DNA from: a virus | Lineage: Duplodnaviria; Caudoviricetes | IMG/VR virus record: IMGVR_UViG_3300030330_005258 | Coordinates: 64,001 to 128,000 of that record | Direction: 5' to 3' (one strand) | Length of the DNA stretch: 64,000 nt | In this document: piece after piece, positions 2-13,997 of the stretch | Layout of the letters: each line of letters opens with the position of its first letter | Numbering within the stretch: the stretch's first letter is position 1 | Notes under the pieces: generated by a model | What the model saw: only the letters and a program-made list of their open reading frames with translations | Told to the model about the DNA's origin: nothing | Databases searched by the model: none | Program-made: the position numbers and the translations under genes

Positions 2-76
2 TTTAAAAGAACCAACGAAGACCAAATAATAGATGATGTATTGACATACTTAACAAACTTGGAGAAAGAACAATGA
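2..76 (+). CDS. 3' end of an upstream gene (partial, ...FKRTNEDQIIDDVLTYLTNLEKEQ*)
   Basis: Open frame from the window edge ending in TGA 74-76, overlapping the ATG at 73 (ATGA coupling, as elsewhere in the cluster). Confidence 0.55.
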   Translation, partial: FKRTNEDQIIDDVLTYLTNLEKEQ

Positions 77-813
77 GTAAGATAAGAATCAGTGTGTTGT
101 GTCCAACTAGAAAGAGAATGGCACTCATGAGAAGAGTTGCTGAAAAATGCTTTGAAACATGCCATAATCCAGAGCAAATTGAGCTTATTTTTGGTATAGA
201 TGACGACGACACTGAATCAATAGAAATGGCTCAGGCATTACAAAAAGAGCTAGCTCCGAATAACATAGAATACATTGTATGGCCAAGAAACAAGTTTATA
301 TTTTCTGATTTAATTAATCAATGCTCCAAGCCAGGGAAAGGAGAAATTTTTAATATTATGTCTGATGATGCTATACACAACTCTAAAGATTGGGATAAAA
401 TAGCATTAGAGATATTCGATAACCACCCAGACAAAATAATTTTATTACAGACAAGCGGCGGCGCTAACCAAAGCACAGGATTTCCATTTATGCATAGAAA
501 CTGGAGAGATGCAGCAGGCTACTTGCTGTCTCCAATTTTTGAGGGCGACTGGGGAGATTATTGGCTGACGGATGTTATAAGGGGTCTGCCAGGAAATAGA
601 TTTGTTTTTTCAACAGATATCGAAATCAGACATCTCCATGCCGAGTGGGGTCACATGGAAAAAGACGAAACGTATTATGAACATCTGAAAGAAAGGCAAG
701 CGCAAGAAGCGTTGCCAAGAGAGCAACACCCATATCATGGCATCGAGGGGACAAGACTTAAGAACTTGGAAATTCAAAAGTTAAACAATTTTATTAAAAA
801 CTATAACAAATAG
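73..813 (+). CDS. Glycosyltransferase, GT-A fold (GT2-like)
   Basis: N-terminal ISVLCPTRKR, ELIFGIDDDD, xDD motif (IMSDD), WGDYW and HLH near the C-terminus; GGAG SD upstream. Confidence 0.8.
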   Translation: MSKIRISVLCPTRKRMALMRRVAEKCFETCHNPEQIELIFGIDDDDTESIEMAQALQKELAPNNIEYIVWPRNKFIFSDLINQCSKPGKGEIFNIMSDDAIHNSKDWDKIALEIFDNHPDKIILLQTSGGANQSTGFPFMHRNWRDAAGYLLSPIFEGDWGDYWLTDVIRGLPGNRFVFSTDIEIRHLHAEWGHMEKDETYYEHLKERQAQEALPREQHPYHGIEGTRLKNLEIQKLNNFIKNYNK

Positions 814-825
814 GAATATGTAATA

Positions 826-1245
826 ATGCATGAAAAGAGAAAATATTTGCCCACTCTATCTGAATTGATTGATAGGCTTTCGATTGTACAACTAAAAGAG
901 GTCTTTATAACTGACCACAAGGAAGAATATGCAAAAGAAATTTCTGATATTTTGCATGATATTGAGTTGACAATTAAAGAAAACAATGTTACTTTAGATA
1001 GTGAGACAATAAGAGCAATAGTAGTATTATCTCAAATGAATCTGCATATCTGGCATAATGAATCTAACTACCGAAAAGGAATTAGAGACGGCAACAATCT
1101 TGAACTTACTCATGGACTGAATGGCATTAGAAATACTGCAAAGAATATAATTCAAGAAATTGTCGGCGGCAGAAAAGACTACAAGATAGATTGTCTCGCA
1201 GCAGAATTTAAAGACTGGGAAATAAGTTGGAGTCAAGATGAATAA
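826..1245 (+). CDS. Small helical protein of unknown function (paralogue of 6114..6527; DUF6165-like)
   Basis: LSELIDRLSIVQLKE...LSQMNLHIW...NGIRN...KNII; aligns by eye along its whole length with 6114..6527. Confidence 0.6.
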   Translation: MHEKRKYLPTLSELIDRLSIVQLKEVFITDHKEEYAKEISDILHDIELTIKENNVTLDSETIRAIVVLSQMNLHIWHNESNYRKGIRDGNNLELTHGLNGIRNTAKNIIQEIVGGRKDYKIDCLAAEFKDWEISWSQDE

Positions 1246-2200
1246 TAAAAAACTTTTAGTTTGTGGTGGCACCGGCTTTATGGGCAGAAATATAGCGAAT
1301 TATTTCAATTCGCTTGCTGGCTATGAAGTTCATATTACAGGCTACAAGAGACAAATTGCAGATTGGCCAGAGAGTCAATATCACCAGATCGATCTAACAT
1401 CACGACAAGATGTCAATCAACTATTTGAAAAAAACAACTTTGATGTTGTAATACAAGCAGCCGCAAATACCTCCGGCTCAAAGGATATCCTAGAGCGTCC
1501 ATACCTGCATGTAACAGATAATGCGATAATGAATTCAATAATTTTGCAAGCTTGTTATGATCATTTTGTTGGTCATTTTTTGTTCTTAAGTTGTGGAGTT
1601 ATGTATAATCCTGACAGGAGCCCAGTAACTGAACAAGATTTTTTTCTAGACGAGGGCATATATTCTAAATATTTTGGCGTCGGATGGACAAAGGTTTACG
1701 TTGAAAAGATGTGTGAGTTCTTTGCCGGGCTTGGCAGGACTAAGCACACCGCAATCAGACATAGTAACACTTACGGACCTCATGATAAGTATGATCTTGA
1801 GAAGTCTCACATGTTTGGTGCCACAATCACAAAAGTAATGAAGGCACAAGACGGTGAAGAGATAGTTGTATGGGGTGATGGTTCCACCGAGAGAGATTTA
1901 CTTTACGTTGATGACGTTGTTGATTTCATTCACAAAGCAATCGACAATCAAAAAAATCACTATGAACTTTATAATGTTGGATATGGAAAATCTTTTTCAG
2001 TAAAACAAATAGTTGAAAAAATAGTATCGATTTCTGGCAAAAATCTTTCAATAACTCATGATTTGACAAAGCCGAGTATTAACACGAAGTTGGCTTTGCT
2101 ATCAGATAAGGCGTTTAAAGAATTGGGCTGGGAGCCGAAGGTTTCAATTGATGATGGCATAGCCAAAACCATCGCGTGGTATAAAAACAATATAGGATAA
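1238..2200 (+). CDS. NAD(P)-dependent sugar epimerase/reductase (extended SDR, GDP-fucose-synthase-like), catalytic Tyr absent
   Basis: GGTGFMG Rossmann motif, RHSNTYGP, VWGDGS-RDLLYV, YNVG; the YxxxK position reads VGWTK. Confidence 0.85.
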   Translation: MNNKKLLVCGGTGFMGRNIANYFNSLAGYEVHITGYKRQIADWPESQYHQIDLTSRQDVNQLFEKNNFDVVIQAAANTSGSKDILERPYLHVTDNAIMNSIILQACYDHFVGHFLFLSCGVMYNPDRSPVTEQDFFLDEGIYSKYFGVGWTKVYVEKMCEFFAGLGRTKHTAIRHSNTYGPHDKYDLEKSHMFGATITKVMKAQDGEEIVVWGDGSTERDLLYVDDVVDFIHKAIDNQKNHYELYNVGYGKSFSVKQIVEKIVSISGKNLSITHDLTKPSINTKLALLSDKAFKELGWEPKVSIDDGIAKTIAWYKNNIG

Positions 2201-2203
2201 CAA

Positions 2204-2845
2204 ATGAATTTATATGTTCCAGAAACTTTCAAAGATCAAGAGGTAAGGCAAGTTCACCTAACGGAACAAGATCTTATAGATTTTGAATTAAGAGTTAAAG
2301 ATGAATATGAGAAGGCTACAATCACTGGTCCGGTGCATATGTCAAAAGGCAACGAAAAACAGTTGATAGAAATTTTCAAGTACATTCATCCCGACGATTG
2401 GGTTTTTTCGTCTTGGCGTAACCATTATCACTCTCTCCTACATGGCGTACCGGAAGAGCACCTATGGGAACTGATAACCGCCGGCAAAAGTATGAGTGTG
2501 TATTGTGGTGAGCCAAAATTGTACACGTCTTCTATAGTTGGTGGTATCATACCAATAGCACTTGGCGCCGCAAAGGCACTTAAGATGAAAAAAACAGGCA
2601 GAAAGGTTTGGGCTTTTGTTGGTGATATGACTGCTGAAACCGGCGGCTTTCATGAAGCCTATAAATATTCTCGTCGCCACAACCTTCCACTAGAATTTGT
2701 AATTGAAGATAACGATATGAGCACAAATACACCAACTAGTGAAACTTGGAATGGAGTTAAGAGCCACTTTCCTAAAGATGTTTTTTATTATTCTTACGAG
2801 AGAGGCTATCCACACCACGGCACCGGTCAGTGGGTTTTATTTTAG
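2204..2845 (+). CDS. ThDP-dependent E1 alpha-like subunit (short)
   Basis: GPVHMSKGNE, WRNHYH, SSIVGG, ThDP motif GD...EDN (GDMTAETG...IEDND). Confidence 0.85.
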   Translation: MNLYVPETFKDQEVRQVHLTEQDLIDFELRVKDEYEKATITGPVHMSKGNEKQLIEIFKYIHPDDWVFSSWRNHYHSLLHGVPEEHLWELITAGKSMSVYCGEPKLYTSSIVGGIIPIALGAAKALKMKKTGRKVWAFVGDMTAETGGFHEAYKYSRRHNLPLEFVIEDNDMSTNTPTSETWNGVKSHFPKDVFYYSYERGYPHHGTGQWVLF

Positions 2846-2853
2846 GAGCAAAG

Positions 2854-3387
2854 ATGAAGTATGTAGAACATTTGGTTAAGTCCATGGAATTCTTGGCAGA
2901 AGACCCAAGAACAATCTTTATTGGTCAATCTGTTGCTTATAGTGGCAACTCTATTTACAACACTCTAAAGACTATTCCAAATGACAGAAAGATCGAAACG
3001 CCTGTCTTTGAAGAAACTCAAATGGGATTGTCAATTGGTCTTGCCATGGAGGGTTATGTACCAGTGACATGCTACCCCCGTTTTGACTTTTTGCTATTGG
3101 CAGTTAATCAGCTTGTTAATCATTTAGATAAAATGGAAGAAATGACACGAGGAACTTTTAAGCCCCGTGTTATAGTTAGAACATCAATCGGCGCCAAGGT
3201 TCCCCTTAATGGTGGCGTGCAGCACACAAAAGATCACACAGAGGCATTTAGGCATTTGCTAGAAAATGTTGAAGTTGTTTTGCTAGAAAATAAAGAAGAC
3301 ATTTTTCCTGCTTACAAAAAAGCCCTAGAAAGAGAAGATAGTAAGCCAACACTCTTAGTAGAATATGGCGAATATTACAATCAATGA
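2854..3387 (+). CDS. ThDP-dependent E1 beta-like subunit, pyrimidine-binding domain only
   Basis: IFIGQSV, ETPVFE..QMGLSIGLAMEG, GVQH; AGGAG SD before ATG 2854 (preferred over the track start at 2830). Confidence 0.8.
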   Translation: MKYVEHLVKSMEFLAEDPRTIFIGQSVAYSGNSIYNTLKTIPNDRKIETPVFEETQMGLSIGLAMEGYVPVTCYPRFDFLLLAVNQLVNHLDKMEEMTRGTFKPRVIVRTSIGAKVPLNGGVQHTKDHTEAFRHLLENVEVVLLENKEDIFPAYKKALEREDSKPTLLVEYGEYYNQ

Positions 3388-4190
3388 TGCTAACCACTCC
3401 CGAAATACAAGAAAAAGCCGACGAACATCGCAAAAAGATACTCAAAGTAATCAACCGTGTAGGCAAGGGGCATGTTGGGGGAGCTTTCTCCTGTATTGAT
3501 ATATTGAGTGTTCTTTATTACAGTGGGATACTAAACATCACCCCAGAGAATATAAATGACCCCAACCGCAATAGGTTTCTATTAAGCAAGGGTCACGCCT
3601 GTATAGCTCAATATGTTATTTTAAATGACTTAGGCTTTTTTGATGATCAAGAGTTATTTAAAATGAATCAAGGTGGTATTTTGGGGGAACATCCAGATAC
3701 AAATATACCCGGCATAGAATTCATATCAGGCTCTCTTGGACATGGCTTAAGTGTTGCGCTGGGCTTCGCCCTTGCCGCCAAAATGAACAAACAAGATTAT
3801 TTAACATACGTTGTATTAGGTGATGGAGAGTGTGGCGAAGGTTCGGTATGGGAGGCTATTAGCATAGCACCCCACCTTAAATTATCTAATTTGGTAGCAA
3901 TCATAGATCGAAACAGACTGTGCATTCATGGGGATACTGAACAAATTCACCCACTTGACCCCCTAGATAAGAGACTTGAATCTTTCGGTTGGAATGTCAT
4001 GGAAATAGACGGACACAACTTTGGGGACCTTTACGTCTCATTGAATAACCTACACCCTTCTAAGCCCACGGCTATTATTGCAAACACAATAAAGGGCAAA
4101 GGCGTTAGTTTTATGGAAAACAAAAACACTTGGCACCATGGCGGCATAAGTGATGAAATACTTGATAAGGCATTGAGAGAAATACAATGA
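3384..4190 (+). CDS. Transketolase, N-terminal (ThDP-binding) subunit
   Basis: GHVGGAFS, RFLLSKGH, GSLGHG, GDGECGEGSVWEA, DRN, TIKGKG, WHH. Confidence 0.93.
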   Translation: MMLTTPEIQEKADEHRKKILKVINRVGKGHVGGAFSCIDILSVLYYSGILNITPENINDPNRNRFLLSKGHACIAQYVILNDLGFFDDQELFKMNQGGILGEHPDTNIPGIEFISGSLGHGLSVALGFALAAKMNKQDYLTYVVLGDGECGEGSVWEAISIAPHLKLSNLVAIIDRNRLCIHGDTEQIHPLDPLDKRLESFGWNVMEIDGHNFGDLYVSLNNLHPSKPTAIIANTIKGKGVSFMENKNTWHHGGISDEILDKALREIQ

Positions 4191-5125
4191 AAGACGATGT
4201 TATAGTTGATATGAGAGATGCGTTTTTTGATCAGCTATATCGGTATATCTCTATTGATAAAAATGTTGTAATCTTGACGGCAGACCACGGCGCCTTTGGC
4301 TTAAAAAAGATTGAGAATGATTACCCTGAACAATATCTCAATATTGGCATTGCAGAACAGGCACTTGTAAGCATCGCTGCTGGATTAGCCAAGTGCGGAA
4401 AAAAAGTATATATATATGCCATAAATAATTTTGTTTCATTAAGAGTTTTGGAGCAAATAAATATTGATTTGTGTGCGATGAATTTAGATGTCAATATCAT
4501 CGGTGTCGGCGCTGGCTTTACTTATAGCACAGATGGTCCTACTCACCAAGGTGTTCAAGATTTATCTGCTATGATAAACTTGCCAAACTTACAGGTCTAC
4601 AATGTTACTGATGACATTAATACCAAAAAGCTTGTAGAGCTTTCATACAATAACTCTGGTCCCAAATATTTTAGAATTGAAAAAGGAAAGCTCCCTAGGA
4701 TATATTCACCGGCAGACGACGTATCTGGTGGTCAAAAAGTTATAACCCCACAGGATAGTGATTATGTGATAATATCTTCTGGTTATATGACACAAAAGGT
4801 TAATAATGTTGTAAAATCTTTAAGCGAACAAAATATTCTTTTGAGACACATGGATCTGTTTAGGATAAGTCCACTACCAATAAGTGATATTGTGTCTTTC
4901 ACAAAAAATAAAAATGTTATTATTGTGGAGGACAATATTAAAAACGGAGGCATTGCAGAAAAAGTCTTTTGCTTATTAAAAGAGCACCAACATACTGGAA
5001 GAGTTTTGAGCATTTCATTAAAAAACAAATTTTATTTTGATTTTGGTGATAGGGATATGCTTCATAAGATCGCTAAGATAGATGAAGATTCGATAACTGA
5101 AAAAATAAAAAGTTTTATACATTGA
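4187..5125 (+). CDS. Transketolase, C-terminal subunit
   Basis: MRDAF, LTADHG, NIGIAEQ, DGPTHQ, YFRI, VEDN..GG. Confidence 0.92.
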   Translation: MKDDVIVDMRDAFFDQLYRYISIDKNVVILTADHGAFGLKKIENDYPEQYLNIGIAEQALVSIAAGLAKCGKKVYIYAINNFVSLRVLEQINIDLCAMNLDVNIIGVGAGFTYSTDGPTHQGVQDLSAMINLPNLQVYNVTDDINTKKLVELSYNNSGPKYFRIEKGKLPRIYSPADDVSGGQKVITPQDSDYVIISSGYMTQKVNNVVKSLSEQNILLRHMDLFRISPLPISDIVSFTKNKNVIIVEDNIKNGGIAEKVFCLLKEHQHTGRVLSISLKNKFYFDFGDRDMLHKIAKIDEDSITEKIKSFIH

Positions 5126-5133
5126 GGTAAATT

Positions 5134-6117
5134 ATGTATTTAGGAAAAAAAGTTTTAGTAGCTGGCGGCACTGGAACAATTGGCATCCCATTGGTTGAGA
5201 TGCTAGTTGAGAGAGGCGCCGTAGTGACCGTAGTTTCTATGGACTCAGAAGAATACGCCACAATGGTATTGCCACCAGAGGTAAGTTTTAAAAAAATGGA
5301 CCTGACCTCCACTGACAATTGTTTGCGAGCGACCCATGGGCAAGATTACGTGTTCAATCTTGTCGGAATAAAAGGCTCAGTTGGCATTGGGGAAACAAAA
5401 GTTGCAAGCTATTTTGTGCCGATGCTTAGGTTTCAAACAAATTTGATGGATGCGGCATTCCATTCAGAAGTATCAAGATATATGTTTGTCAGTAGTGTGT
5501 GCATCTACCCACAAGCATCCGAACATTTTGAAGATAATGCCTGGAATGGTATGCCAAAACAGAACGACCGGATCCCAGGATTGGCAAAGAGAATCGGAGA
5601 AATACAAGGAGAGACTTATTTGAAAGAGCACGGCTGGGACGCTGTACGAGTTGTTAGACCCAGCAATGTTTATGGTCCTTTTGATGACTTTAACCCCGCC
5701 ACTGCTCAAGTTATTCCATCTTTGATCTCCAGAACACTTTCTGGAGAAAGTCCCTTAAACGTCTGGGGGGATGGTTCTGCGATTAGAGATTTTGTATATT
5801 CGAGAGAAGTTGCGCATTGGTTGCTGGAGGCTTTAGAGCACGCGCCACCATGTGTCCCAATCAATCTAGGCTCGGGCAATCCATGCTCAATTAAGCAGGT
5901 TGCTGAAGTTATTTGTAATGTACAGCAGCCCCCTACACAAATTATATGGGACACCTCCAAGCCAGCAGGCGACCCAATTAGACTAATGAATATGGAAAGA
6001 GCACAAAAATATTTAAACTTTAAACAAATCTATCCTTTAGAGAAAGGGATAGAGGAGACAATTAAATGGATTGTGGATAATCCATATTTAGCTAAATTAA
6101 AAGGATTCAAAATATGA
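5134..6117 (+). CDS. NAD(P)-dependent sugar epimerase/reductase (extended SDR), catalytic Tyr absent
   Basis: AGGTGTIG, SSVCIYP, RPSNVYGP, WGDGS-RDF; YxxxK position reads PGLAK; close paralogue of 9497..10480. Confidence 0.85.
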   Translation: MYLGKKVLVAGGTGTIGIPLVEMLVERGAVVTVVSMDSEEYATMVLPPEVSFKKMDLTSTDNCLRATHGQDYVFNLVGIKGSVGIGETKVASYFVPMLRFQTNLMDAAFHSEVSRYMFVSSVCIYPQASEHFEDNAWNGMPKQNDRIPGLAKRIGEIQGETYLKEHGWDAVRVVRPSNVYGPFDDFNPATAQVIPSLISRTLSGESPLNVWGDGSAIRDFVYSREVAHWLLEALEHAPPCVPINLGSGNPCSIKQVAEVICNVQQPPTQIIWDTSKPAGDPIRLMNMERAQKYLNFKQIYPLEKGIEETIKWIVDNPYLAKLKGFKI

Positions 6118-6527
6118 GTTACAATAGAAAGTTTGTTTTACCGGCTGCTGAGTTAGTTGATAGAATATCAGTAGACCAAATTAAAGAAATGTTGTTTGAC
6201 GATAACAGCAGTATTACTCGTGAAATACAAGATATTTCAGATGATTTAGATCACATTATAAAAGAAAAAAATGTTGTTTTTAATGCTAGACTATTGAGGG
6301 TAATAGTGGCTCTGTCTCAAATTAATGTGCATATTTGGTATTTGAAAGATATGATGCAGGACAAGCCAGAGAAGTATGATGAATTGCTTAAACTAGCTCA
6401 CCAAATAAACGGTGTTAGAAATAGATTGAAAAATCTATTACTTGAAGAATTTGGAGATAAAGAAAAGAGTCTCCTCCGTAGCAATTTTGACACCGATGGT
6501 CTAAAGGGCTGGGAAGTTAGCCTGTGA
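6114..6527 (+). CDS. Small helical protein of unknown function (paralogue of 826..1245)
   Basis: AAELVDRISVDQIKE...LSQINVHIW...NGVRNRLKNLL...GWEVSL. Confidence 0.6.
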   Translation: MSYNRKFVLPAAELVDRISVDQIKEMLFDDNSSITREIQDISDDLDHIIKEKNVVFNARLLRVIVALSQINVHIWYLKDMMQDKPEKYDELLKLAHQINGVRNRLKNLLLEEFGDKEKSLLRSNFDTDGLKGWEVSL

Positions 6528-6528
6528 C

Positions 6529-7632
6529 ATGAGATACATTGAGCTACCGGCTTTTGATAATCGTATTTCAAGAATAGCTCTCGGAGTCAACAAAACCGGA
6601 AATAAAAAATCAGCAACCCCGGAAAAAGAATCGCGCCGTGTTTCTTTTTATCATGAAGCGATAGATTTGGGGATCAATTTTTTTGATACTGCTGAACTTT
6701 ATGGCGGCGGCTATTCGGAAGAGGTTTTAGGTAAAGCCCTTCAAGGTAGCTACAGGCACGATAATATAATATGCACCAAGTTTAATGCAAAAAACTCGTC
6801 AAAAGAAAAAATTCAAACATCTCTGGAGGGCAGCTTAAGAAGGTTAAATACCGAATACGTTGACTTGTATTTAGCTCATTGGCCAAACCCAAATGTACCA
6901 TTTGATGATTTATTAGAATCTTTGCAAAAATTCAAAAAGCAAGGAAAAGTAAGATCATTTGGACTTAGTAACGCAACACTTTCAGAAATAGAGAGGTTTT
7001 ATCTGTTAAATGATAGCCAGCCCTGCGTTATAGAAAACGAATATAACATAATCGACAGAAGTGTAGAGGACGGTATTTTACCCTTTGTGCAGCGTAGTGG
7101 GTGCTTATTCTTGTCTTATAGCCCATTGGCTCAAGGCATACCAATAACAAAAAATAAGCAAATTGATATGTTGTGTAACAAATACAGATGTACGATACAA
7201 CAATTATTTTTAGCTTGGATACATGATAGAAATGTTGTATCAATTGTTAGAACAATGAACAGCAGCCATTTACAAGACAATGTTTCGTCTTTAATGATTA
7301 AATTGGAAACTCATGAAAAGCAACTTCTACAAGATACATTTTCATTAAAAAAAATCAAAGTTAATATTGAATCGATCAATTTAGACAAAAGCCCATATGT
7401 ATCAGTTCAAGATGCAATTCAAAATTTTGAAGATTTGATTCCAAGCCCCTCGATGCTGGCGAATAGAATAGATAGAGGTTATAATTTTTCTCCTCTGCGC
7501 CTTATAAAAAATGGCAATCGATACGATATTTTGAATGGATTTGGCATGTCTGAAATTAAAAAGATTTGGGCTTGGAAAATTTCAAGACCATATGATAACA
7601 AAATGGAGGCTTATATATACAATGATTTATAA
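6529..7632 (+). CDS. Aldo/keto reductase with degenerate C-terminal ParB/Srx-like domain
   Basis: FDTAELYGGG.SE, CTKF, DLYLAHWP, GKVRSFGLSN, YSPLAQG; about 95 extra C-terminal residues (PLRL...RYDILNG...WAW). Confidence 0.85.
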   Translation: MRYIELPAFDNRISRIALGVNKTGNKKSATPEKESRRVSFYHEAIDLGINFFDTAELYGGGYSEEVLGKALQGSYRHDNIICTKFNAKNSSKEKIQTSLEGSLRRLNTEYVDLYLAHWPNPNVPFDDLLESLQKFKKQGKVRSFGLSNATLSEIERFYLLNDSQPCVIENEYNIIDRSVEDGILPFVQRSGCLFLSYSPLAQGIPITKNKQIDMLCNKYRCTIQQLFLAWIHDRNVVSIVRTMNSSHLQDNVSSLMIKLETHEKQLLQDTFSLKKIKVNIESINLDKSPYVSVQDAIQNFEDLIPSPSMLANRIDRGYNFSPLRLIKNGNRYDILNGFGMSEIKKIWAWKISRPYDNKMEAYIYNDL

Positions 7633-8737
7633 AACAATAGGAACAGACAGGGTATCAGCGATTGGATTTGGAACCGGGTTCACTGCCCCTGAAAATAGAA
7701 ATTGTGACACCCTGCAACAAACAATACACAACTCTATTGATTTGGGTGTGAATTTCATAGATACAGCACCAGTATACGGTAATGGAGTTTCGGAAACGAT
7801 GCTTGGTCAAGTTTTAAAAAACATAGGCAGAGAAAAGGTGTTTCTTGCCTCCAAGGTGTCACCAGAAGATACGAGCTACAAAGGTGTGATAAGCTCAGCC
7901 GAACAAAGTTTGAAAAGATTACAAACAGAAACCATTGACCTTTTTCAAATACACTGGCCAAGCGTAAATATACCACTGTCAGAAACAGCAGAAGCAATGG
8001 AAAAACTGGTTTCAGATGGAAAGATTAGATACATTGGCGTTAGTAATTTTCAAATGCACGAGATAGTTGAGACAAAGAATAGTCTAAAGCAGAACTCTCT
8101 TGCCTCTATACAATCAGAATATAATTTTTTTGAGAGATCCATGGAAGACAAAGTTTTACCTTTTTGTAAAAAAAATGATATGATGCTAATAGCCTATAGC
8201 CCACTAGCACAAGGTAATTTGGCAAACGGTAAACAACAAAAGACAATATTAACCCAAATGGCACAAAAATATGGTGCAACAACCGGGCAACTTGTGTTAA
8301 GATGGCTTATAGAAAATGATAATGTTTTGGTTATACCAAATACCTCTAAACCCCATCGTGCGATAGAGAATGCAAAAGCCGCAAACTTTACAATTTCTAA
8401 GGAAGATTTCATGATACTATCTGAAAATCTTAAAACTTTACAGCAATTAATTGATGTGAAAGATGTTAGAGTCTCCAATGACTACAGCAGAAAAGTATAT
8501 CAAACAATTGAAGAGGCAAAAGAAAATAAAATGAATCTTTCTCCGTCTCCAATTGAATTATCTGAGGAAATGAAGAAGGGGAACTTTTTAAAACCGATAA
8601 GACTAAAAGAATTGGAGAAGCCTATAGATGGCAAGCGATATGATTTAGTTGAAGGAAGATTGCGTTACTGGGCTTGGACTATAGCCCATGGATATGATAA
8701 GCCAATCCCGGCTTTAGTTTGGAAAACAAGGAGTTAA
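7622..8737 (+). CDS. Aldo/keto reductase with C-terminal ParB/Srx-like domain
   Basis: IDTAPVYGNG.SE, ASKV, FQIHWP, GKIRYIGVSN, YSPLAQG; tail KPIRL...RYDLVEGRLRYWAW...IPALV; GGAGG SD supports the ATG at 7622. Confidence 0.88.
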   Translation: MIYKTIGTDRVSAIGFGTGFTAPENRNCDTLQQTIHNSIDLGVNFIDTAPVYGNGVSETMLGQVLKNIGREKVFLASKVSPEDTSYKGVISSAEQSLKRLQTETIDLFQIHWPSVNIPLSETAEAMEKLVSDGKIRYIGVSNFQMHEIVETKNSLKQNSLASIQSEYNFFERSMEDKVLPFCKKNDMMLIAYSPLAQGNLANGKQQKTILTQMAQKYGATTGQLVLRWLIENDNVLVIPNTSKPHRAIENAKAANFTISKEDFMILSENLKTLQQLIDVKDVRVSNDYSRKVYQTIEEAKENKMNLSPSPIELSEEMKKGNFLKPIRLKELEKPIDGKRYDLVEGRLRYWAWTIAHGYDKPIPALVWKTRS

Positions 8738-8738
8738 A

Positions 8739-9494
8739 ATGACAGACAAGAAAGCAATCATCACTTACGATGATCAAAAAGAAAGAGATGCTCGAAATGA
8801 ATTATATGAATTATTGAAGGAGTGTCCAATACCAGAGGACCAAGTTTTATCAAATTTGGGTCTTTTTTTGAATTCTAAAAACTTATCTAGAATTCTTTTT
8901 ATGAATTACATATATCAAAAAATTGTTGATGTCCAAGGGGTCGTTTTTGAATTTGGAACGCGCTGGGGACAAAATGTGGCGCTCTTTGCAGCGTTGCGCG
9001 GTATCTATGAGCCCTTTAACAGACACAGAAAGATAGTGGCTTTTGATACTTTTGAAGGGTTTCCTTCAATTCATGAGAAGGATGGAGACTCATCTATGAT
9101 GGTGGAGGGTATGCTTAGCTTGACTGAAAATTATGATCAATATTTGTCTAGCGTTGTTTCAACAATTGAAAAAGACAACCCATTGTCTCATATACAAAAA
9201 TTCGAACTTAGAAAGGGAGACGGAATAGTCGAGATTGATTCATATCTTGAACAGAATCCCGAAACAATTATCTCATTAGCTTACTTCGATTTTGATCTAT
9301 ATGCGCCCACCAAGAAGTGCCTAGAAGCCATAAAGCCTCGCTTGACTAAGGGCAGCGTCGTATGCTTTGATGAACTTAATGATCCTGATTCTCCCGGAGA
9401 GACCTTGGCACTGATGGAAGTTTTCGGTCTCGAAAATGTTACGCTCAAGAGATTTCCATATGTCTCTAGAATATCATATTTTATAGTGGAGTAG
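8739..9494 (+). CDS. TylF/MycF/NovP-family SAM-dependent sugar O-methyltransferase
   Basis: GVVFEFGTRWG, FDTFEGFP, YFDFDLY.PT, GSVVCFDE. Confidence 0.8.
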   Translation: MTDKKAIITYDDQKERDARNELYELLKECPIPEDQVLSNLGLFLNSKNLSRILFMNYIYQKIVDVQGVVFEFGTRWGQNVALFAALRGIYEPFNRHRKIVAFDTFEGFPSIHEKDGDSSMMVEGMLSLTENYDQYLSSVVSTIEKDNPLSHIQKFELRKGDGIVEIDSYLEQNPETIISLAYFDFDLYAPTKKCLEAIKPRLTKGSVVCFDELNDPDSPGETLALMEVFGLENVTLKRFPYVSRISYFIVE

Positions 9495-9496
9495 AA

Positions 9497-10480
9497 ATGA
9501 TTAATGATTTGAATAACGCAAAGGTGCTTGTTACCGGAGGCACCGGTATGATTGGTAGGTATTTGGTAGACAAACTTCTTGCAAGAGGCTGCGAAGTAAC
9601 TGTTGTATCCCTCGATGACCCCGAGGGCTTGCCAGAGCCTGTAAAGTTTATGAAACTGGACTTAACAATTCTGGATAACTGCCTTAAGGCGTGCGAGGGA
9701 CAAGACTACGTTTTTAATTTAATTGGCATCAAGGGATCTCCAAAAATGTCTAGAGAGCGACCTGCCAGTTTTATGGTCCCCATGCTAATGTTTAACACAG
9801 CCATGATGGAAGCTGCCATGCGCAGTAACGTGAAATGGTATCTATACACTAGCTCTGTTGGAGTCTATCATCCTGCTGAAGTGTTCAAAGAGGATGATGT
9901 GTGGAAGACTTTTCCGTCTGACAACGACAAGCACCCCGGCTGGGCAAAGAGAATTGGAGAACTTCAGGCTGATGCATATCGTATACAATACGGTAGAAAC
10001 AATATATCAATTGTTAGACCAGCTAACGTATATGGCAAGTGGGACAACTTTGATCCAGAGAATGCCATGGTTATACCATCACTTATAAACAGAATAGTGT
10101 CAGGAGAATCTCCTCTTGTATGTTGGGGCGATGGAAAGCCAATTAGAGATTTCATTTATGCTGGTGATTGCGCCGATGGTATGATTCACATGGTTGAAAA
10201 TGGAGTGACAGATCCTGTAAATTTGGGTAGTGGTGACGGAGTATCAATTAAAGAAGTTGCAGAAGCTATCAGAGATTGTTATAATAAAGATATAGAGATT
10301 GAATGGGATATTACCAAGCCCAAAGGGGACGCCCGCCGCCTAATGGATACTACAAGAGCAGAGTCAAATGGTTTTGTCTGTAGTACACACCTAGTTGACG
10401 GCATTAGAGAAACGCTCCAATGGTTCTTGGAAAATAGAGATCTCTACAAGAAAAGAAACAATTACTTTGTAAAGGACTGA
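9497..10480 (+). CDS. NAD(P)-dependent sugar epimerase/reductase (extended SDR), catalytic Tyr absent
   Basis: TGGTGMIG, RPANVYG, WGDG.PIRDFIY, NLGSG; YxxxK position reads PGWAK. Confidence 0.85.
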   Translation: MINDLNNAKVLVTGGTGMIGRYLVDKLLARGCEVTVVSLDDPEGLPEPVKFMKLDLTILDNCLKACEGQDYVFNLIGIKGSPKMSRERPASFMVPMLMFNTAMMEAAMRSNVKWYLYTSSVGVYHPAEVFKEDDVWKTFPSDNDKHPGWAKRIGELQADAYRIQYGRNNISIVRPANVYGKWDNFDPENAMVIPSLINRIVSGESPLVCWGDGKPIRDFIYAGDCADGMIHMVENGVTDPVNLGSGDGVSIKEVAEAIRDCYNKDIEIEWDITKPKGDARRLMDTTRAESNGFVCSTHLVDGIRETLQWFLENRDLYKKRNNYFVKD

Positions 10481-10481
10481 C

Positions 10482-10994
10482 ATGATAATAAAAGACACTA
10501 AGTTGCAGGGAGTAAAACTTATAATCCCTGATAGATTTGAAGACCATCGAGGATCTTACATGGAGCTTTATGATTCAAAAAATTTTGAATCAATTACGAG
10601 TGAGTGTTTTATTCAAGATGATATTTCAATTTCAAACAAGGGTGTCTTGAGGGGGCTTCATGGCGATTGGAGAACTACAAAAATAGTCACAGTTATAAAC
10701 GGCTCGGGCTATGCGCTGATAGCAGATAACCGCCCATCCTCGCCCACCTATAAACAATGGCAGTCCTTTACCCTCAGTAAGCAAAATAAGCAAATGCTTC
10801 TGCTTCCTGCCGGCATTGGCAATTCAATATTAGCTCTTGAAGATAATATGATTTATTATTACAAGCAAAATACACATTTTGTAGATGGGCAACAATTTAC
10901 AATAAAGTGGGACAGCCCCGAGTGGGACTTTTGGTGGCCAATCAAAGAGCCAATTTTGTCCATGAGAGACCAGAGAGGCGATTATGTCAAATAA
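10482..10994 (+). CDS. rmlC: dTDP-4-dehydrorhamnose 3,5-epimerase family (RmlC-like cupin)
   Basis: FEDHRG, QDDISIS..GVLRGLH, DNRPSSPTY.QW, W..PIKEPILS.RD. Confidence 0.85.
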   Translation: MIIKDTKLQGVKLIIPDRFEDHRGSYMELYDSKNFESITSECFIQDDISISNKGVLRGLHGDWRTTKIVTVINGSGYALIADNRPSSPTYKQWQSFTLSKQNKQMLLLPAGIGNSILALEDNMIYYYKQNTHFVDGQQFTIKWDSPEWDFWWPIKEPILSMRDQRGDYVK

Positions 10995-11997
10995 AAATTG
11001 TATTATTACGGGCATAACAGGCATGGTTGGCTCTCATTTGGCTGACTACTTGCTTGAAAATACAGATTGGGAAGTTCATGGCTTGACCCGATGGAATGAC
11101 AGGATGGACAATATTGAGCACCTGATGCAGCGGATAAACAAGAAGGATAGAATCCATCTACAGTATGGTGATATAAATGATTTAAGCTCAATGTTGGCTG
11201 TGTTTGATAGAGTCAAACCAGATTATGTTTTTCACTTAGCAGCACAGAGCTATCCAAAGACAAGCTTTGAGTCGCCTCTAGAAACTCTTGAGACAAATAT
11301 ACTTGGAACTGCTAAAGTTTTAGATGCCATAAAGACTCTTAGTTTGGAACCGGTAATTCATGTCTGTGCTTCATCTGAAGTATTTGGCAGAGTGCCAAAA
11401 GAGTTTCTACCAATACACGAAGATGTACAATTTCATCCAGCCTCACCCTATGCTATTTCAAAAGTTGGAACAGATCTTATTGGCAGGTTTTACGCCGAGG
11501 CGTATGGATTAAAAGTTATGACAACTCGCATGTTCACACACACTGGTCCACGCAGGGGCGACGTCTTTGCGGAGTCTACATTTGCTAAACAAATAGCTAT
11601 GATAGAAGCAGGACTACAGGAGCCAACCATAAAGGTTGGTAACCTTGACTCTTTGAGAACGTGGTCAGATGTTAGAGATGCCGTTCGCGCTTACCACATG
11701 TTGGTGACAAACAATCCAATCGCCGGAGAATATTATAACATTGGAGGCACGTTTAGTTGTACAGTTAGGGAAATGTTAGAATATTTGATTTCTCTTTCTA
11801 CTGTTAAAAATATATCAATTGAAACTGACCCCGATAGGTTACGACCAATTGATGCCGACTTGCAGGTACCAGATACTTCAAAGTTCAAAAATCATACAGG
11901 GTGGGAGCCGGAAATCTCATTTGAAAAAACAATGCAAGATTTACTTAACTACTGGCGTGATAATGTCAACAACGGCAGAAGGTTCTTAAGTAGATGA
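10984..11997 (+). CDS. gmd: GDP-mannose 4,6-dehydratase family
   Basis: ITGITGMVGSHL, HLAAQS, SSEVFG, intact PYAISK, GNLDSLR.WSDVRD, RLRPID. Confidence 0.85.
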   Translation: MSNKNCIITGITGMVGSHLADYLLENTDWEVHGLTRWNDRMDNIEHLMQRINKKDRIHLQYGDINDLSSMLAVFDRVKPDYVFHLAAQSYPKTSFESPLETLETNILGTAKVLDAIKTLSLEPVIHVCASSEVFGRVPKEFLPIHEDVQFHPASPYAISKVGTDLIGRFYAEAYGLKVMTTRMFTHTGPRRGDVFAESTFAKQIAMIEAGLQEPTIKVGNLDSLRTWSDVRDAVRAYHMLVTNNPIAGEYYNIGGTFSCTVREMLEYLISLSTVKNISIETDPDRLRPIDADLQVPDTSKFKNHTGWEPEISFEKTMQDLLNYWRDNVNNGRRFLSR

Positions 11998-12725
11998 GTA
12001 TTTTAGTAATAGGGGAAAGTTGTAACGATATTTTTCATTATGGTGTTTGTAATAGGCTTTGTCCAGAAGCCCCCGTACCAGTTTTCAATTCCTCCAAGGT
12101 AGTAAATAACGGTGGCATGGCAATGAATGTTTATAGTAATTTGTTATCTTTAGGATCTAATGTACAAATCCACACTAACTCAAATTGGAAAAACATAACA
12201 AAAACACGATTTGTTGATAGAAGAACAAATCACATGTTTATGAGACTAGACGAACGCGATGATGAATATGGAAAAATAAATTTAAAAGATCTTGAATTAA
12301 AAAATTATGATGCAGTGATAGTATCTGATTACAATAAAGGATTTATGTCCGAGAGTGATATAAGTTATATTTCTAAAAATTCAAAGTTAAGTTTTCTAGA
12401 TACTAAAAAGAAGCTTGGCTCTTGGTGTGATGATTTTTCATTTATAAAAATAAATCATCTAGAATATGAAAGAACAAAAAACACAATTACTGATAAGGTG
12501 TTAAAAAAGTTGATAGTAACGCGAGGACCTCGCGGCTGTGTCTACAAAGGCAAGACTTACGGTGTCGAGTTGGTAGAGGTTAAAGACACTTCTGGCGCTG
12601 GCGATACTTTTATAGCAGCACTTTGCTTTAAATATTGCCTTACAGGCGACATAGACAAATCAATACAGTTTGCCAATCAATGCTCAACCACAGTTGTGCA
12701 AAAGATGGGAGTTGTTACAATATGA
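11994..12725 (+). CDS. PfkB-family sugar-phosphate kinase (HldE/RfaE domain I-like)
   Basis: RLCPEAPVPV, GGMAMNV, KTRF, VSDYNKG, KIN..E, DTSGAGDTF. Confidence 0.88.
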   Translation: MSILVIGESCNDIFHYGVCNRLCPEAPVPVFNSSKVVNNGGMAMNVYSNLLSLGSNVQIHTNSNWKNITKTRFVDRRTNHMFMRLDERDDEYGKINLKDLELKNYDAVIVSDYNKGFMSESDISYISKNSKLSFLDTKKKLGSWCDDFSFIKINHLEYERTKNTITDKVLKKLIVTRGPRGCVYKGKTYGVELVEVKDTSGAGDTFIAALCFKYCLTGDIDKSIQFANQCSTTVVQKMGVVTI

Positions 12726-13114
12726 AAATAGTTTGGACAAACGGTTGTTTTGATGTCCTTCATCGCGGACACATAGAATTATTCAAATATGCCAAATCTC
12801 TTGGAGATTATTTGGTTGTTGGTATTGACACCGATGAAAGAGTTAAGGCTGCCAAAGGCGACACGCGCCCGTTTAACACTATAGAAGACAGGGTTGCGAT
12901 GCTTGAGTCAATTAAATACATTGATGAAATAAGAGTGTTTGACCACGATGATGAACTGGATACACAGGTTCTTTTAAGTCGCGCCGAAACAATGGTAGTG
13001 GGCTCTGACTATAAAGATAGGCAAGTAATTGGTTCCAGACATGTGCGAGAGGTAAAATTTTTTGATAGGATAGACGGGTACTCAACAACTAAAATTTTAG
13101 TGGGATTGCAATGA
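12722..13114 (+). CDS. Nucleotidyltransferase (HldE/RfaE domain II-like cytidylyltransferase fold)
   Basis: TNGCFDVLHRGH, VGIDTD..V...KG..RP, GSDY, GYSTT; ATGA overlap supports the start at 12722. Confidence 0.88.
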   Translation: MKIVWTNGCFDVLHRGHIELFKYAKSLGDYLVVGIDTDERVKAAKGDTRPFNTIEDRVAMLESIKYIDEIRVFDHDDELDTQVLLSRAETMVVGSDYKDRQVIGSRHVREVKFFDRIDGYSTTKILVGLQ

Positions 13115-13437
13115 CTTATGTTTTTGATATAGACGGAACCATATGTTCCAAAACAGACGGAGACTATACACAAGCAAAACCTTTTCATGATAGAATCAAG
13201 AAAGTGAATCGCCTTTATGATGAAGGGCACATGATTATCTTCTTAACCGCAAGAGGAATGGGAAGACATAATAATAATTTTCTTAATGCACAGAGGGACT
13301 TTTATGACTTCACTCTAGCGCAGTTAAAGCATTGGGGTGCGAAACACCACCAACTGTTTCTAGGTAAGCCATCCGGCGACTATTACATTGATGATAAGGG
13401 AATAAATGATGAAGACTTCTTCAACACAGGAAATTAA
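13111..13437 (+). CDS. HAD-superfamily phosphatase (capsule-biosynthesis type)
   Basis: FDIDGTIC, TARG, GKP..DYYIDDK. Confidence 0.85.
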   Translation: MTYVFDIDGTICSKTDGDYTQAKPFHDRIKKVNRLYDEGHMIIFLTARGMGRHNNNFLNAQRDFYDFTLAQLKHWGAKHHQLFLGKPSGDYYIDDKGINDEDFFNTGN

Positions 13438-13774
13438 ATTTGTACCCAAAGGCTGGGGCTTTGAAAAGTGGATTGTCAATAATGAAGAATATTGTGGCAA
13501 GCTGCTTTACTTTGTGAAAGGAAAAAGGTGTTCATGGCATTATCACAAATTAAAAGATGAAGTATTTTATGTCCAATCAGGAAAAATACAAGTTTTTTAT
13601 GGCGAAGGCGACAATATACTAGATAGTAATGTCGTGGTATTAGAAAAAGGCGATAACTTTCATGTATATCGCGGATTAAGACACCAAATGTTAGCGCTTG
13701 AAGACACAGAACTATTTGAGTTTTCAACTCAACATTTTGACAGTGACAGTTACAGAATTCAAAAAGGAGATTGA
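13406..13774 (+). CDS. Cupin, sugar isomerase-like (mannose-6-P / lyxose isomerase-like)
   Basis: VPKGWGFE.W, SWHYH..KDE.FYV..G, H.M.A.ED..LFEFST. Confidence 0.75.
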   Translation: MMKTSSTQEIKFVPKGWGFEKWIVNNEEYCGKLLYFVKGKRCSWHYHKLKDEVFYVQSGKIQVFYGEGDNILDSNVVVLEKGDNFHVYRGLRHQMLALEDTELFEFSTQHFDSDSYRIQKGD

Positions 13775-13775
13775 C

Positions 13776-13997
13776 ATGAGTAACGGAACGTTTAAATTAT
13801 CAAATCAGGCACTTGGGGCTGTAATGATGGCTCTACAGGAGTCACTACTAAATGAATTGGACATTGTTCCAATCTTAAAGGGCTTTGAGCTTGCACAGGG
13901 CGAAGATGGTTTGGTTGTGACAAACCCACCAACCGTCCGCGTCAGCAACAACAAGCCAATCACAGAACAAGACTTAAAGACGATGGCGGGCGAGTAG
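13776..13997 (+). CDS. Hypothetical phage protein
   Basis: AAGGAG SD before ATG 13776; abuts the next gene. Confidence 0.7.
   Translation: MSNGTFKLSNQALGAVMMALQESLLNELDIVPILKGFELAQGEDGLVVTNPPTVRVSNNKPITEQDLKTMAGE

What the first reader, a model, noticed from the sequence alone, without database searches (positions are those of the whole stretch)
1238..10480. Three sugar SDRs all lack the catalytic Tyr of YxxxK
Seen: the YxxxK position reads VGWTK (~1679), PGLAK (~5575) and PGWAK (~9935), while the neighbouring GMD keeps YAISK. Rossmann motifs, the Lys and the WGDG/RD motifs are intact, so these do not look like decayed genes. Only 5134 keeps a GFS/GME-like SSxCIY Cys. Established: the Tyr is the general acid/base for C4 redox in extended SDRs. 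Inference: they are non-redox subunits that present the 4-keto sugar to the ThDP enzymes, or they use a different chemistry.
Basis: partly seen in the sequence, partly recalled or inferred. Interest (0 to 1): 0.7.

Follow-up and report, generated by a model that had tools for sequence, protein, structure and literature searches.

The report
Three tyrosine-less fucose-synthase-like sugar enzymes
A marine phage carries three sugar-modifying enzymes that all lack the tyrosine normally essential to their enzyme class; the loss is ancient and conserved in an uncharacterised sugar-branching gene cassette shared by many bacteria, so these enzymes probably use a modified, still unknown chemistry.

Summary
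Observation confirmed. ORFs 1238-2200 (SDR1), 5134-6117 (SDR2) and 9497-10480 (SDR3) are full-length extended SDRs closest to GDP-fucose synthase (Fcl) and GDP-mannose 3,5-epimerase. V148, P148 and P147 sit on Fcl Tyr136. Lys140, the glycine loop and the NDP-sugar motifs are kept. This is not decay. About 120 homologues of each protein, and 43 bacterial loci from many phyla, show the same three Tyr-less types inside one conserved cassette. The cassette holds a GMD-like dehydratase, E1-like and transketolase-like ThDP pairs, SDR2 plus a small DUF, aldo-keto reductases, a methyltransferase, SDR3, an RmlC-like epimerase and SDR1.

Type A (SDR1) has V at the Tyr site, a conserved Tyr one helical turn earlier (Y-x6-K), His179 and an NADP-type beta2 end. 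Types B and C (SDR2, SDR3) have P/A/G at the Tyr site, Asp one turn earlier, NAD-type signatures and Gln or Met at His179. B and C are sister clades next to canonical Fcl.

Best reading: active cofactor-binding enzymes with a re-wired proton relay, adapted to C-branched sugars. The "non-redox presenter" idea is neither excluded nor favoured. Model coordinates could not be read, so no substitute acid was verified. The scan has noted the same Tyr-less SDR sets in other genomes. I found no paper describing them.

The parts
1238..2200 (+). SDR1 (P0001, 320 aa), type A Fcl-like extended SDR. Signature C119 / V121 / V148 / K152 / H191 at the Fcl S107 / C109 / Y136 / K140 / H179 columns. Y145 sits at K-7. 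YKR follows beta2 (NADP type).
   Evidence: Pfam Epimerase 1.6e-41. PDB alignments. Conservation. AF2 pLDDT 91.1; Foldseek hits 4zrn and 1gfs at TM 0.83-0.87.
1670..1693 (+). YFGVGWTK. V148 lies at the canonical Tyr site and Y145 one helical turn upstream, giving Y-x6-K spacing.
5134..6117 (+). SDR2 (P0002, 327 aa), type B. Signature S121 / C123 / P148 / K152 / Q192. D145 sits at K-7. Has a GIKGS loop and SMD after beta2 (NAD type).
   Evidence: Pfam 5.4e-39. Family and cellular homologues.
5563..5589 (+). NDRIPGLAK. P148 lies at the Tyr site. D145 is invariant (100% of type B).
9497..10480 (+). SDR3 (P0003, 327 aa), type C. Signature S120 / G122 / P147 / K151 / M191. D144 sits at K-7. Has a GIKGS loop and SLD after beta2 (NAD type).
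   Evidence: Pfam 5.3e-45. PDB alignment. AF2 pLDDT 96.5; Foldseek hits 1gfs (TM 0.84) and 2c5a (TM 0.87). Conservation.
9923..9949 (+). NDKHPGWAK. P147 lies at the Tyr site. D144 is 93% conserved in type C.
826..1245 (+). DUFa, a small helical protein that overlaps the SDR1 start by 8 nt. It is a paralogue of DUFb.
   Evidence: 36% identity to DUFb. No Pfam family above cut-off.
6114..6527 (+). DUFb, the partner of SDR2 (4-nt overlap). Fused to the SDR2 orthologue in some bacteria.
   Evidence: P0300 (468 aa) residues 331-467 are 53% identical to DUFb. Found next to SDR2 in 43 of 43 cellular cassette loci. About 25 near-invariant polar residues.
2204..3387 (+). Minimal E1 alpha/beta-like ThDP pair (2204-2845 and 2830-3387).
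   Evidence: Pfam E1_dh and Transket_pyr; NCBIfam PDH E1 far below cut-off.
3384..5125 (+). Split transketolase-like ThDP pair (3384-4190 and 4187-5125).
   Evidence: Pfam Transketolase_N, Transket_pyr and Transketolase_C.
6529..8737 (+). Two aldo/keto reductases with C-terminal extensions.
   Evidence: Pfam Aldo_ket_red 5e-56 and 3e-62.
8739..9494 (+). TylF/Methyltransf_24-like methyltransferase.
   Evidence: Weak Pfam hits. 60-70% identity to the cassette gene in bacteria.
10482..10994 (+). RmlC-like 3,5-epimerase.
   Evidence: Pfam dTDP_sugar_isom 3e-42.
10984..11997 (+). GMD-like NDP-sugar 4,6-dehydratase (P0004) with intact YAISK.
   Evidence: Pfam GDP_Man_Dehyd 4.5e-80. TIGR01472 scores 196 bits against a cut-off of 415.
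11994..13774 (+). Sugar-activation genes: PfkB-like kinase, cytidylyltransferase-like protein, HAD-like protein, cupin.
   Evidence: Pfam. Conserved in related viral contigs.

Best explanation
The three proteins are functional, cofactor-binding, NDP-sugar-binding enzymes. They belong to three ancient orthologous groups of Fcl/GME-like extended SDRs in which the canonical proton relay (Tyr136, Cys109, His179 of Fcl) has been re-wired. They work inside a conserved, uncharacterised pathway. In that pathway a GMD-like dehydratase makes an NDP-4-keto-6-deoxy (probably heptose) sugar, and two ThDP enzymes add two-carbon units to keto carbons.

Shown:
- The Tyr loss is conserved in all three types.
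- Lys140, Ser107, the glycine loop and the NDP-sugar motifs are retained.
- The three types have distinct signatures and co-occur with the ThDP enzymes.

Inferred:
- The residue at the old Tyr site (P/A/G in B and C, V in A) makes room for a branched, tertiary C4.
- The acid/base has moved one helical turn up, to position K-7. It is Tyr145 in SDR1, giving the Y-x6-K spacing used by FabI-type reductases, which protonate an oxygen one bond further from the hydride acceptor. It is Asp145/Asp144 in SDR2/SDR3, possibly working with Ser as the Thr/Asp pair does in PglF.
- SDR1 (NADP-type, His179 kept, next to RmlC in bacteria) is most likely the NADPH-dependent ketoreductase of the pathway.
- SDR2 and SDR3 (NAD-type, GalE-like Lys) most likely use bound NAD(H) for oxidation, reduction or epimerisation next to the branch. 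SDR2 retains Cys123 for proton abstraction and acts with its DUF partner.
For: Alignment of V/P/P on Tyr136.

Conservation: PGWAK/AGWAK in 117 of 121 SDR3 relatives. Y[FY]GVGWTK in 120 of 121 SDR1 relatives and PGxAK in most SDR2 relatives. The same signatures occur in 43 cellular loci of many phyla.

Column statistics: Lys140 is 100% in A, B and C. The K-7 column is Tyr 92% (A), Asp 100% (B), Asp 93% (C) and Asn 72% (canonical).

Cross-tabulation: Asp at K-7 is never paired with Tyr at K-4 (0 of 187). Tyr at K-7 is paired with V/I/L/F in 59 of 59.

Cofactor determinants.

Tree: B+C clade 99*, B 99*, C 84, sister to canonical Fcl-like sequences.

High-confidence Fcl/GME-like folds.

Precedents for active Tyr-less SDRs: PMC8987622 and PMC1991597. 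FabI Tyr156/Lys163 spacing: papers listed.

The AKR Pau7 reduces the acetyl branch made by an E1-like pair (PMC4753412). This leaves ring-proximal chemistry for the SDRs.
Against: No side-chain geometry could be inspected, because model coordinates are not exposed. Whether Tyr145 or Asp144/145 reach the substrate is therefore untested.

Asp or Asn in the first turn of a helix can simply be capping residues.

Some A-lineage relatives carry both Tyr residues (YYGYGWxR). The K-7 Tyr therefore predates the loss and may only bind substrate.

No biochemical datum exists for any member, and the substrates are unknown. The assignment of individual steps is guesswork.
Confidence: 0.45

Rival explanations
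1. This is the first reader's idea: non-redox presenter subunits. The SDR-fold proteins only bind the NDP-keto-sugar, with NAD as a structural ligand. They deliver or orient it for the E1-like and transketolase-like enzymes, which have no NDP-sugar-binding domain of their own.
For: There is tight, often overlapping gene adjacency of an SDR with a ThDP pair: TKN-TKC-SDR2 in the window and in cells, and E1a-E1b-SDR3 in L044, L053 and L057. Type C has lost all three Fcl acid/base residues (G, P, M). The ThDP subunits are minimal (213 + 185 aa).
Against: Lys140 and Ser107 are invariant, and type-specific NAD versus NADP determinants are maintained. C-type domains occur fused to 2OG oxygenase or UDP-glucose dehydrogenase domains, outside any ThDP context. 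SDR and ThDP active sites are both buried, so joint catalysis on one sugar is sterically hard (inference). To my knowledge YerE acts on a CDP-keto-sugar without an SDR partner.
Confidence: 0.2
2. Ordinary C4 ketoreductases or epimerases in which Lys or ordered water replaces Tyr as the proton donor. The substitution would then have no special mechanistic meaning.
For: Eugenol synthase and PIP reductases work with Lys only (PMC1991597). WbpM and PglF stay active with Met at the Tyr site (PMC8987622). The cassette contains no other Fcl-like 4-reductase with Tyr.
Against: Three different paralogues in one operon all lack Tyr, and each has its own conserved replacement pattern. That points to specialised, distinct roles. 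Fcl Tyr136 mutants were made as inactive forms for crystallography (1e7r, Y136E, listed). To my knowledge a carbonyl reduction without an acid is slow.
Confidence: 0.17
3. SDR-fold reductoisomerases or borrowed-hydride partners of the ThDP ligases. By analogy with AHAS/KARI and DXS/DXR, the tertiary alpha-ketol made by the ThDP enzyme is rearranged and reduced. Alternatively, bound NAD+ oxidises a ring OH to create the acceptor, and the same hydride is later returned to the new acyl branch.
For: An invariant Asp lies near the active-site helix in B and C. Those types also carry GalE-like tight-NAD signatures. There is constant pairing with ThDP carboligases.
Against: This rests purely on analogy. 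No metal-binding motif was identified, and only one conserved acidic residue was found.
Confidence: 0.1
4. Non-catalytic NAD(P)-sensing or regulatory pseudoenzymes (NmrA/HSCARG-like), or decayed genes or an alignment artefact.
For: Loss of the catalytic Tyr is typical of NmrA-like atypical SDRs (my own knowledge).
Against: The ORFs are full-length and translationally coupled inside a biosynthetic operon. They are conserved across phyla and in phages with small genomes. The NDP-sugar-binding motifs are retained. The alignment is reproduced by four methods.
Confidence: 0.03

Closest known systems
GDP-L-fucose synthase (Fcl/GMER/WcaG; PDB 1gfs, 1e6u, 4bl5) and GDP-mannose 3,5-epimerase (2c5a)
   Same: These are the best sequence and fold matches (E 1e-24 to 1e-36 for single sequences, 4e-62 for the profile; TM 0.83-0.87). 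Shared features: extended SDR architecture, GxxGxxG, Ser107, Lys140, NxYGP, WGDG, RDF and the C-terminal NDP-sugar domain.
   Different: Tyr136 is replaced by V, P and P. The Cys109/His179 pair is incomplete: His only in SDR1, Cys only in SDR2, neither in SDR3. SDR2 and SDR3 carry NAD-type rather than NADPH-type determinants. The NCBIfam Fcl model scores 138-160 bits against a cut-off of 500.
PglF/WbpM UDP-GlcNAc 4,6-dehydratases (Mx3K, TDK)
   Same: These are extended nucleotide-sugar SDRs that lack the catalytic Tyr yet still carry out NAD+-dependent redox. Another residue pair (Thr/Asp) takes the proton (PMC8987622).
   Different: They belong to a different subfamily (Polysacc_synt_2). They have Met, not P/A/G/V, at the Tyr site. 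Their replacement residues sit in the Ser/Thr loop (TDK), which here reads SSVGVY, SSVCIY or LSCGVM.
FabI/InhA-type 'divergent' SDR enoyl reductases (Y-x6-K)
   Same: SDR1 and all of type A have Tyr seven residues before the Lys (Y145...K152). This is the spacing of FabI Tyr156/Lys163.
   Different: The only relationship is at superfamily level. SDR1 is an extended NDP-sugar SDR, and no enoyl substrate is known for it. The resemblance is positional and untested.
PIP-family reductases / eugenol synthase (atypical SDRs)
   Same: They lack the catalytic Tyr and keep the Lys, which is catalytic (PMC1991597).
   Different: Their substrates are phenylpropanoids and they have no NDP-sugar domain. They are not close in sequence.
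E1-like sugar-branching systems of actinomycete antibiotics (AviB1/AviB2, Pau11/Pau12 with the AKR Pau7)
   Same: A stand-alone E1 alpha/beta-like pair is proposed to add a C-4 acetyl branch to a keto-sugar, and an aldo-keto reductase reduces the branch carbonyl (PMC4753412). The window has an E1-like pair and two AKRs.
   Different: Those clusters have no reported trio of Tyr-less Fcl-like SDRs and no second (transketolase-type) ThDP enzyme. Here the substrate is probably a heptose nucleotide and the host of the genes is a phage.

Membership tests
GDP-L-fucose synthase (Fcl, NCBIfam NF047922) | Score at or above the curated equivalog cut-off (500 bits) | tested here: not met
   140.6, 138.3 and 159.5 bits.
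GDP-L-fucose synthase (Fcl) | Ser107-Tyr136-Lys140 catalytic triad | tested here: not met
   Ser(Cys)/Lys are present. Tyr is replaced by V148, P148 and P147.
GDP-L-fucose synthase (Fcl) | Cys109/His179 epimerisation acid/base pair | tested here: not met
   SDR1 has V/H, SDR2 has C/Q, SDR3 has G/M.
GDP-L-fucose synthase (Fcl) | Fcl-like two-domain fold | tested here: met
   Foldseek hit 1gfs: TM 0.84 (SDR3) and 0.83 (SDR1).
GDP-L-fucose synthase (Fcl) | GDP-4-keto-6-deoxymannose to GDP-fucose activity with NADPH | not testable with these tools
   Needs an enzyme assay.
Extended SDR (Pfam PF01370 Epimerase) | Pfam score above the gathering cut-off, with an N-terminal GxxGxxG Rossmann motif | tested here: met
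   142.7, 134.5 and 154.1 bits against a cut-off of 20.9. The motifs are GGTGFMG, GGTGTIG and GGTGMIG.
Extended SDR | YxxxK active-site motif | tested here: not met
   The motifs read VGWTK, PGLAK and PGWAK. This is conserved family-wide.
GDP-mannose 3,5-epimerase (GME) | Tyr174/Lys178, plus Cys145 and Lys217 as acid/base | tested here: not met
   This is read through the Fcl alignment. The Tyr column is not Tyr. The His179/Lys217-equivalent column is H, Q or M. Cys is present only in SDR2. The GME sequence itself was not aligned residue by residue here.
PglF/WbpM-type Tyr-less dehydratases | TDK loop plus Mx3K, in the Polysacc_synt_2 family | tested here: not met
   The loops read SSVGVY, SSVCIY and LSCGVM. 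There is no Met at the Tyr site. PF02719 was not hit.
FabI-type divergent SDR | Y-x6-K with Tyr as proton donor in enoyl reduction | tested here: inconclusive
   The spacing is met in SDR1 (Y145-K152; 92% of type A). The function and geometry were not testable.

The most novel reading that the evidence does not exclude
The Tyr-less Fcl-like SDRs are obligate partners of ThDP carboligases in a new kind of sugar C-branching machine. In one version, bound NAD+ borrows a hydride to create the keto acceptor and returns it to the newly added acyl branch, giving a redox-neutral oxidise-ligate-reduce cycle. In the other, the SDR fold acts as a reductoisomerase on the tertiary alpha-ketol, as KARI and DXR do after AHAS and DXS. 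An Asp one helical turn above the vacated Tyr site would serve as the catalytic residue.
Probability: 0.1. Interest if true: 0.85.

Novelty: new variant of a known kind. Interest (0 to 1): 0.6.

Why it matters
The Ser-Tyr-Lys triad is the textbook definition of SDR catalysis. Only a few Tyr-less exceptions have been worked out (PglF/WbpM, PIP reductases).

Here three distinct Tyr-less subfamilies, each with its own conserved replacement pattern, sit together in one gene cassette. The cassette is spread across Nitrospirota, Chloroflexota, Planctomycetota, Desulfobacterota, Firmicutes, CPR bacteria and marine phages. It contains two different ThDP C-C bond-forming enzymes.

Public annotation calls these proteins 'GDP-L-fucose synthase', which the membership tests contradict.

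Working out what they do would define the product of a widespread, unknown surface-sugar pathway. In this phage the pathway sits beside five glycosyltransferases. It would also add a new solution to proton transfer in the SDR fold.

Tried and rejected
1. Inspecting the AF2 models for a substitute acid. The models were built, but the coordinates are not readable by any tool or in /data. Only secondary structure and fold matches were available.

2. The look-up of encoding contigs for the context of cellular homologues. I used the search for related loci instead.

3. A single-sequence scan of genome contigs with P0002 found nothing. The alignment-based rescan found 45 loci.

4. GenBank phages hold no close relative of SDR3 (31% identity or less) or of the terminase (44% or less).

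5. Literature searches found no paper on this cassette or on Tyr-less Fcl-like SDRs. They gave only precedents from other families.

6. Pfam and the ESM Atlas gave no family for the DUF partner.

7. A fusion search for SDR-ThDP Rosetta stones found none among the long representatives. They are fused instead to 2OG oxygenase, UDP-glucose dehydrogenase or B12-binding domains.

8. Rejected: gene decay, misalignment, or a frame or start-codon artefact. The ORFs are full-length, the models are high-confidence, and the alignment is reproduced by four methods.

Full report
**Context.** The window is part of a 154,577-base IMG/VR virus record, of which it covers bases 64001-128000. All genes lie on the + strand. 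Baseplate, large terminase and portal genes lie downstream. Bases 73-13774 form one tightly packed, often overlapping operon. In order it encodes:
- a GT2-like ORF;
- DUFa and SDR1;
- an E1 alpha/beta-like ThDP pair;
- a split transketolase-like pair;
- SDR2 and DUFb;
- two aldo-keto reductases;
- a TylF-like methyltransferase;
- SDR3;
- an RmlC-like epimerase;
- a GMD-like 4,6-dehydratase;
- PfkB-like, cytidylyltransferase-like, HAD-like and cupin genes.

Just upstream of the window the same genome encodes two GT4, a GT2, a PseB-like SDR with intact YGASK, a carbamoyltransferase and a GT10-like protein.

**Observation.** The translations and motif coordinates match the finding exactly: VGWTK at 1679, PGLAK at 5575, PGWAK at 9935 and YAISK in the GMD-like protein.

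All methods put V148, P148 and P147 on Fcl Tyr136 and the following Lys on Lys140, with no gap in that segment. The methods were:
- phmmer against PDB chains, where the best hits are GDP-fucose synthases followed by GDP-mannose 3,5-epimerase;
- a family profile against PDB (E 4e-62 to E. coli Fcl);
- MAFFT alignments that include E. coli Fcl cut from K-12.

The glycine loop, WGDG and RD motifs are intact. Only SDR2 keeps the Cys109 equivalent. AF2 models are confident (pLDDT 96.5 and 91.1). They match 1gfs, 4bl5, 2c5a and 4zrn at TM 0.83-0.87.

**Not decay.** Each protein has thousands of homologues, mostly marine. Among the top 120 of each:
- SDR3 relatives read PGWAK (78), AGWAK (38) or PGWSK (1);
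- SDR1 relatives read Y[FY]GVGWTK in 120 of 121;
- SDR2 relatives read PG[ILV]AK, with a few A/V/S variants.

An exhaustive search of 50%-identity representatives found 432 clusters at E<=1e-30. The best-scoring full-length ones are dominated by Tyr-less signatures. Canonical SCYKH sequences appear only around E 1e-44.

**A conserved cassette.** An alignment-seeded scan of one genome per prokaryotic species returned 45 loci. They come from Heliobacterium, Nitrospirales, Dehalococcoidia, Planctomycetota, Geobacteraceae, Syntrophales, Acidobacteriota, Verrucomicrobiota, Levybacteria, Omnitrophota, a Woesearchaeota MAG and others.

In 43 of them tblastn with the window's operon proteins recovers the same cassette. 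Its usual order is GMD ... E1a-E1b ... TKN-TKC-SDR2-DUFb-AKR-(AKR)-MT-SDR3-RmlC-SDR1. Extracted SDRs from these loci carry the same three signatures.

Marine viral contigs carry either the full cassette in the window's order (L048, L050) or reduced versions. The smallest reduced versions keep a GMD-like gene, an E1-like pair, a C-type SDR directly after E1b, and an A-lineage SDR.

Earlier first-stage notes of this scan recorded Tyr-less Fcl-like pairs or trios in several other genomes. I confirmed the generality independently.

**Three types** (column statistics from 259 sequences; beta2 region):

| Feature (Fcl column) | Type A (SDR1) | Type B (SDR2) | Type C (SDR3) |
|---|---|---|---|
| S107 | S/C | S | S/T |
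| C109 | A/V/T | C 97% | G 91% |
| Y136 | V 94% | P 67% / A 27% | P 61% / A 22% / G 12% |
| K140 | K 100% | K 100% | K 100% |
| H179 | H 100% | Q 100% | M 93% |
| K-7 (Fcl N133 column) | Tyr 92% | Asp 100% | Asp 93% |
| After beta2 | basic residues, as in NADPH-using Fcl | Asp/Glu 95% | Asp/Glu 92% |

Types B and C also share a GIKGS loop whose Lys aligns with GalE Lys84.

Columns matching Fcl R187, W202, R209 and K283 (the NDP-sugar side) are retained in all three types. The one partial exception is the K283 column in type A (R 61%, L 34%; L285 in SDR1).

Across 291 sequences, Asp at K-7 never coincides with Tyr at K-4 (0 of 187). Asn at K-7 goes with Tyr (16 of 20). Tyr at K-7 goes with V/I/L/F (59 of 59). 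These counts are not phylogenetically independent.

A quick IQ-TREE tree (94 rows, outgroup GMDs) makes B+C a clade (SH-aLRT 99), B a clade (99) and C a clade (84). B+C is sister to a canonical Fcl-like group that includes E. coli Fcl. Type A branches separately. Tyr was therefore lost at least twice.

**Partners.** DUFa and DUFb are paralogues (36% identity). DUFb follows SDR2 in every cellular cassette. It is fused to SDR2 in 468-aa proteins such as P0300 (53% identity over 137 residues), so the two proteins very likely act together. The DUF has about 25 near-invariant polar residues and no informative family match.

Long relatives of the C type are fused to 2OG-Fe(II) oxygenase, UDP-glucose/GDP-mannose dehydrogenase or B12-binding domains. 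They still read SGDPK[TM]. The C type is therefore an autonomous enzyme module used in more than one context.

**Interpretation.** The evidence favours active enzymes over scaffolds: invariant Lys and Ser, maintained and type-specific cofactor determinants, retained NDP-sugar motifs, and deep purifying selection.

Loss of Tyr does not imply loss of redox chemistry. PglF and WbpM (Mx3K) oxidise C4 using a Thr/Asp pair (PMC8987622). Eugenol synthase uses only the Lys (PMC1991597).

My working model is inference only.
- The small or aliphatic residue at the Tyr site makes room for a tertiary, C-branched centre created by the ThDP enzymes.
- The proton-transfer group sits one helical turn earlier, on the same helix face. 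It is Tyr145 in SDR1, with the Y-x6-K spacing of FabI Tyr156/Lys163. It is Asp in SDR2 and SDR3.
- In the AF2 secondary structure the helix spans residues 143-164 (SDR1) and 142-165 (SDR3). K-7, K-4 and K therefore lie in consecutive turns.
- Pau7, an AKR, reduces the acetyl branch installed by an E1-like pair (PMC4753412). The two AKRs here are thus the natural branch-carbonyl reductases, which leaves ring-proximal steps for the SDRs.
- I assign SDR1 as the NADPH ketoreductase. I assign SDR2 and SDR3 as NAD-dependent oxidation, reduction or epimerisation enzymes. Confidence in these assignments is modest.

**Caveats.**
It is suggested, not shown.
- Asp or Asn at a helix N-terminus can be a capping residue.
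- Some A-lineage proteins have both tyrosines.
- The presenter hypothesis keeps real support from gene adjacency, and it fits type C best.

**Verdict.** The feature is a conserved, uncharacterised variant of the Fcl/GME-type extended SDR, embedded in a widespread two-ThDP sugar cassette. It is not a member of the GDP-fucose synthase family in the functional sense. The mechanism is unresolved but is directly testable.

Noticed in passing
L058 (G000:C1:50001-64100): 5749-7035, 7011-8276, 9104-9853, 9850-10707, 10707-12299, 12301-14076: Directly upstream of the window the phage encodes two GT4, a GT2, a PseB/CapD-like SDR with intact YGASK, a NodU/CmcH-type carbamoyltransferase and a 591-aa GT10-like protein. 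Together with the window's operon this makes a glycan-synthesis block of about 22 kb in a phage.
   Followed up: partly
window 826-1245 and 6114-6527: These are two paralogous ~138-aa helical proteins with no family assignment. Each is coupled to a Tyr-less SDR. DUFb is fused to the SDR2 orthologue in Planctomycetota and Woesearchaeota proteins (P0300, P0272). About 25 polar residues are near-invariant, including Y88, H96 and the N99-G-x-R-N103 block, so the protein looks like an enzyme or ligand binder.
   Followed up: partly
L052:14488-15435, L054:3761-4681, L055:10914-11840, L056:10920-11846: Reduced viral versions of the cassette carry an A-lineage SDR that reads YYGYGWxRRY. Both the K-7 and the K-4 tyrosines are present, but the catalytic Lys is replaced by Arg.
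   Followed up: no
proteins P0387, P0400, P0414, P0464, P0471, P0433: C-type Tyr-less SDR domains (SGDPK[TM]) are fused to 2OG-Fe(II) oxygenase, UDP-glucose/GDP-mannose dehydrogenase or B12-binding domains. P0390 and P0394 have an unassigned N-terminal region of about 400 aa.
   Followed up: partly
protein P0490 (676 aa): This canonical Fcl-like protein carries an insertion of about 350 aa placed immediately before the Cys109-equivalent residue. It looks like an intein and ends ...HN|C.
   Followed up: no
L028:1983-2891: An otherwise canonical Fcl-like gene (SC-KH) has Phe at the Tyr136 position (TNEAFAVAK). It lies in a bacterial locus that also holds the cassette.
   Followed up: no
window 6529-8737: Both aldo-keto reductases are about 90-100 residues longer than the Pfam AKR domain at the C-terminus. 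The listed ORFs overlap (7535 versus 7632), so the true start of the second is probably later.
   Followed up: no
window 17878-24309 and 27921-36788: Two very large ORFs (2143 and 2955 aa) flank a baseplate-wedge-like gene in the structural region.
   Followed up: no
L027, L029, L032, L043: Some bacterial cassettes carry two split-transketolase pairs and no E1-like pair within 20 kb. The two ThDP enzyme types therefore seem interchangeable slots.
   Followed up: no
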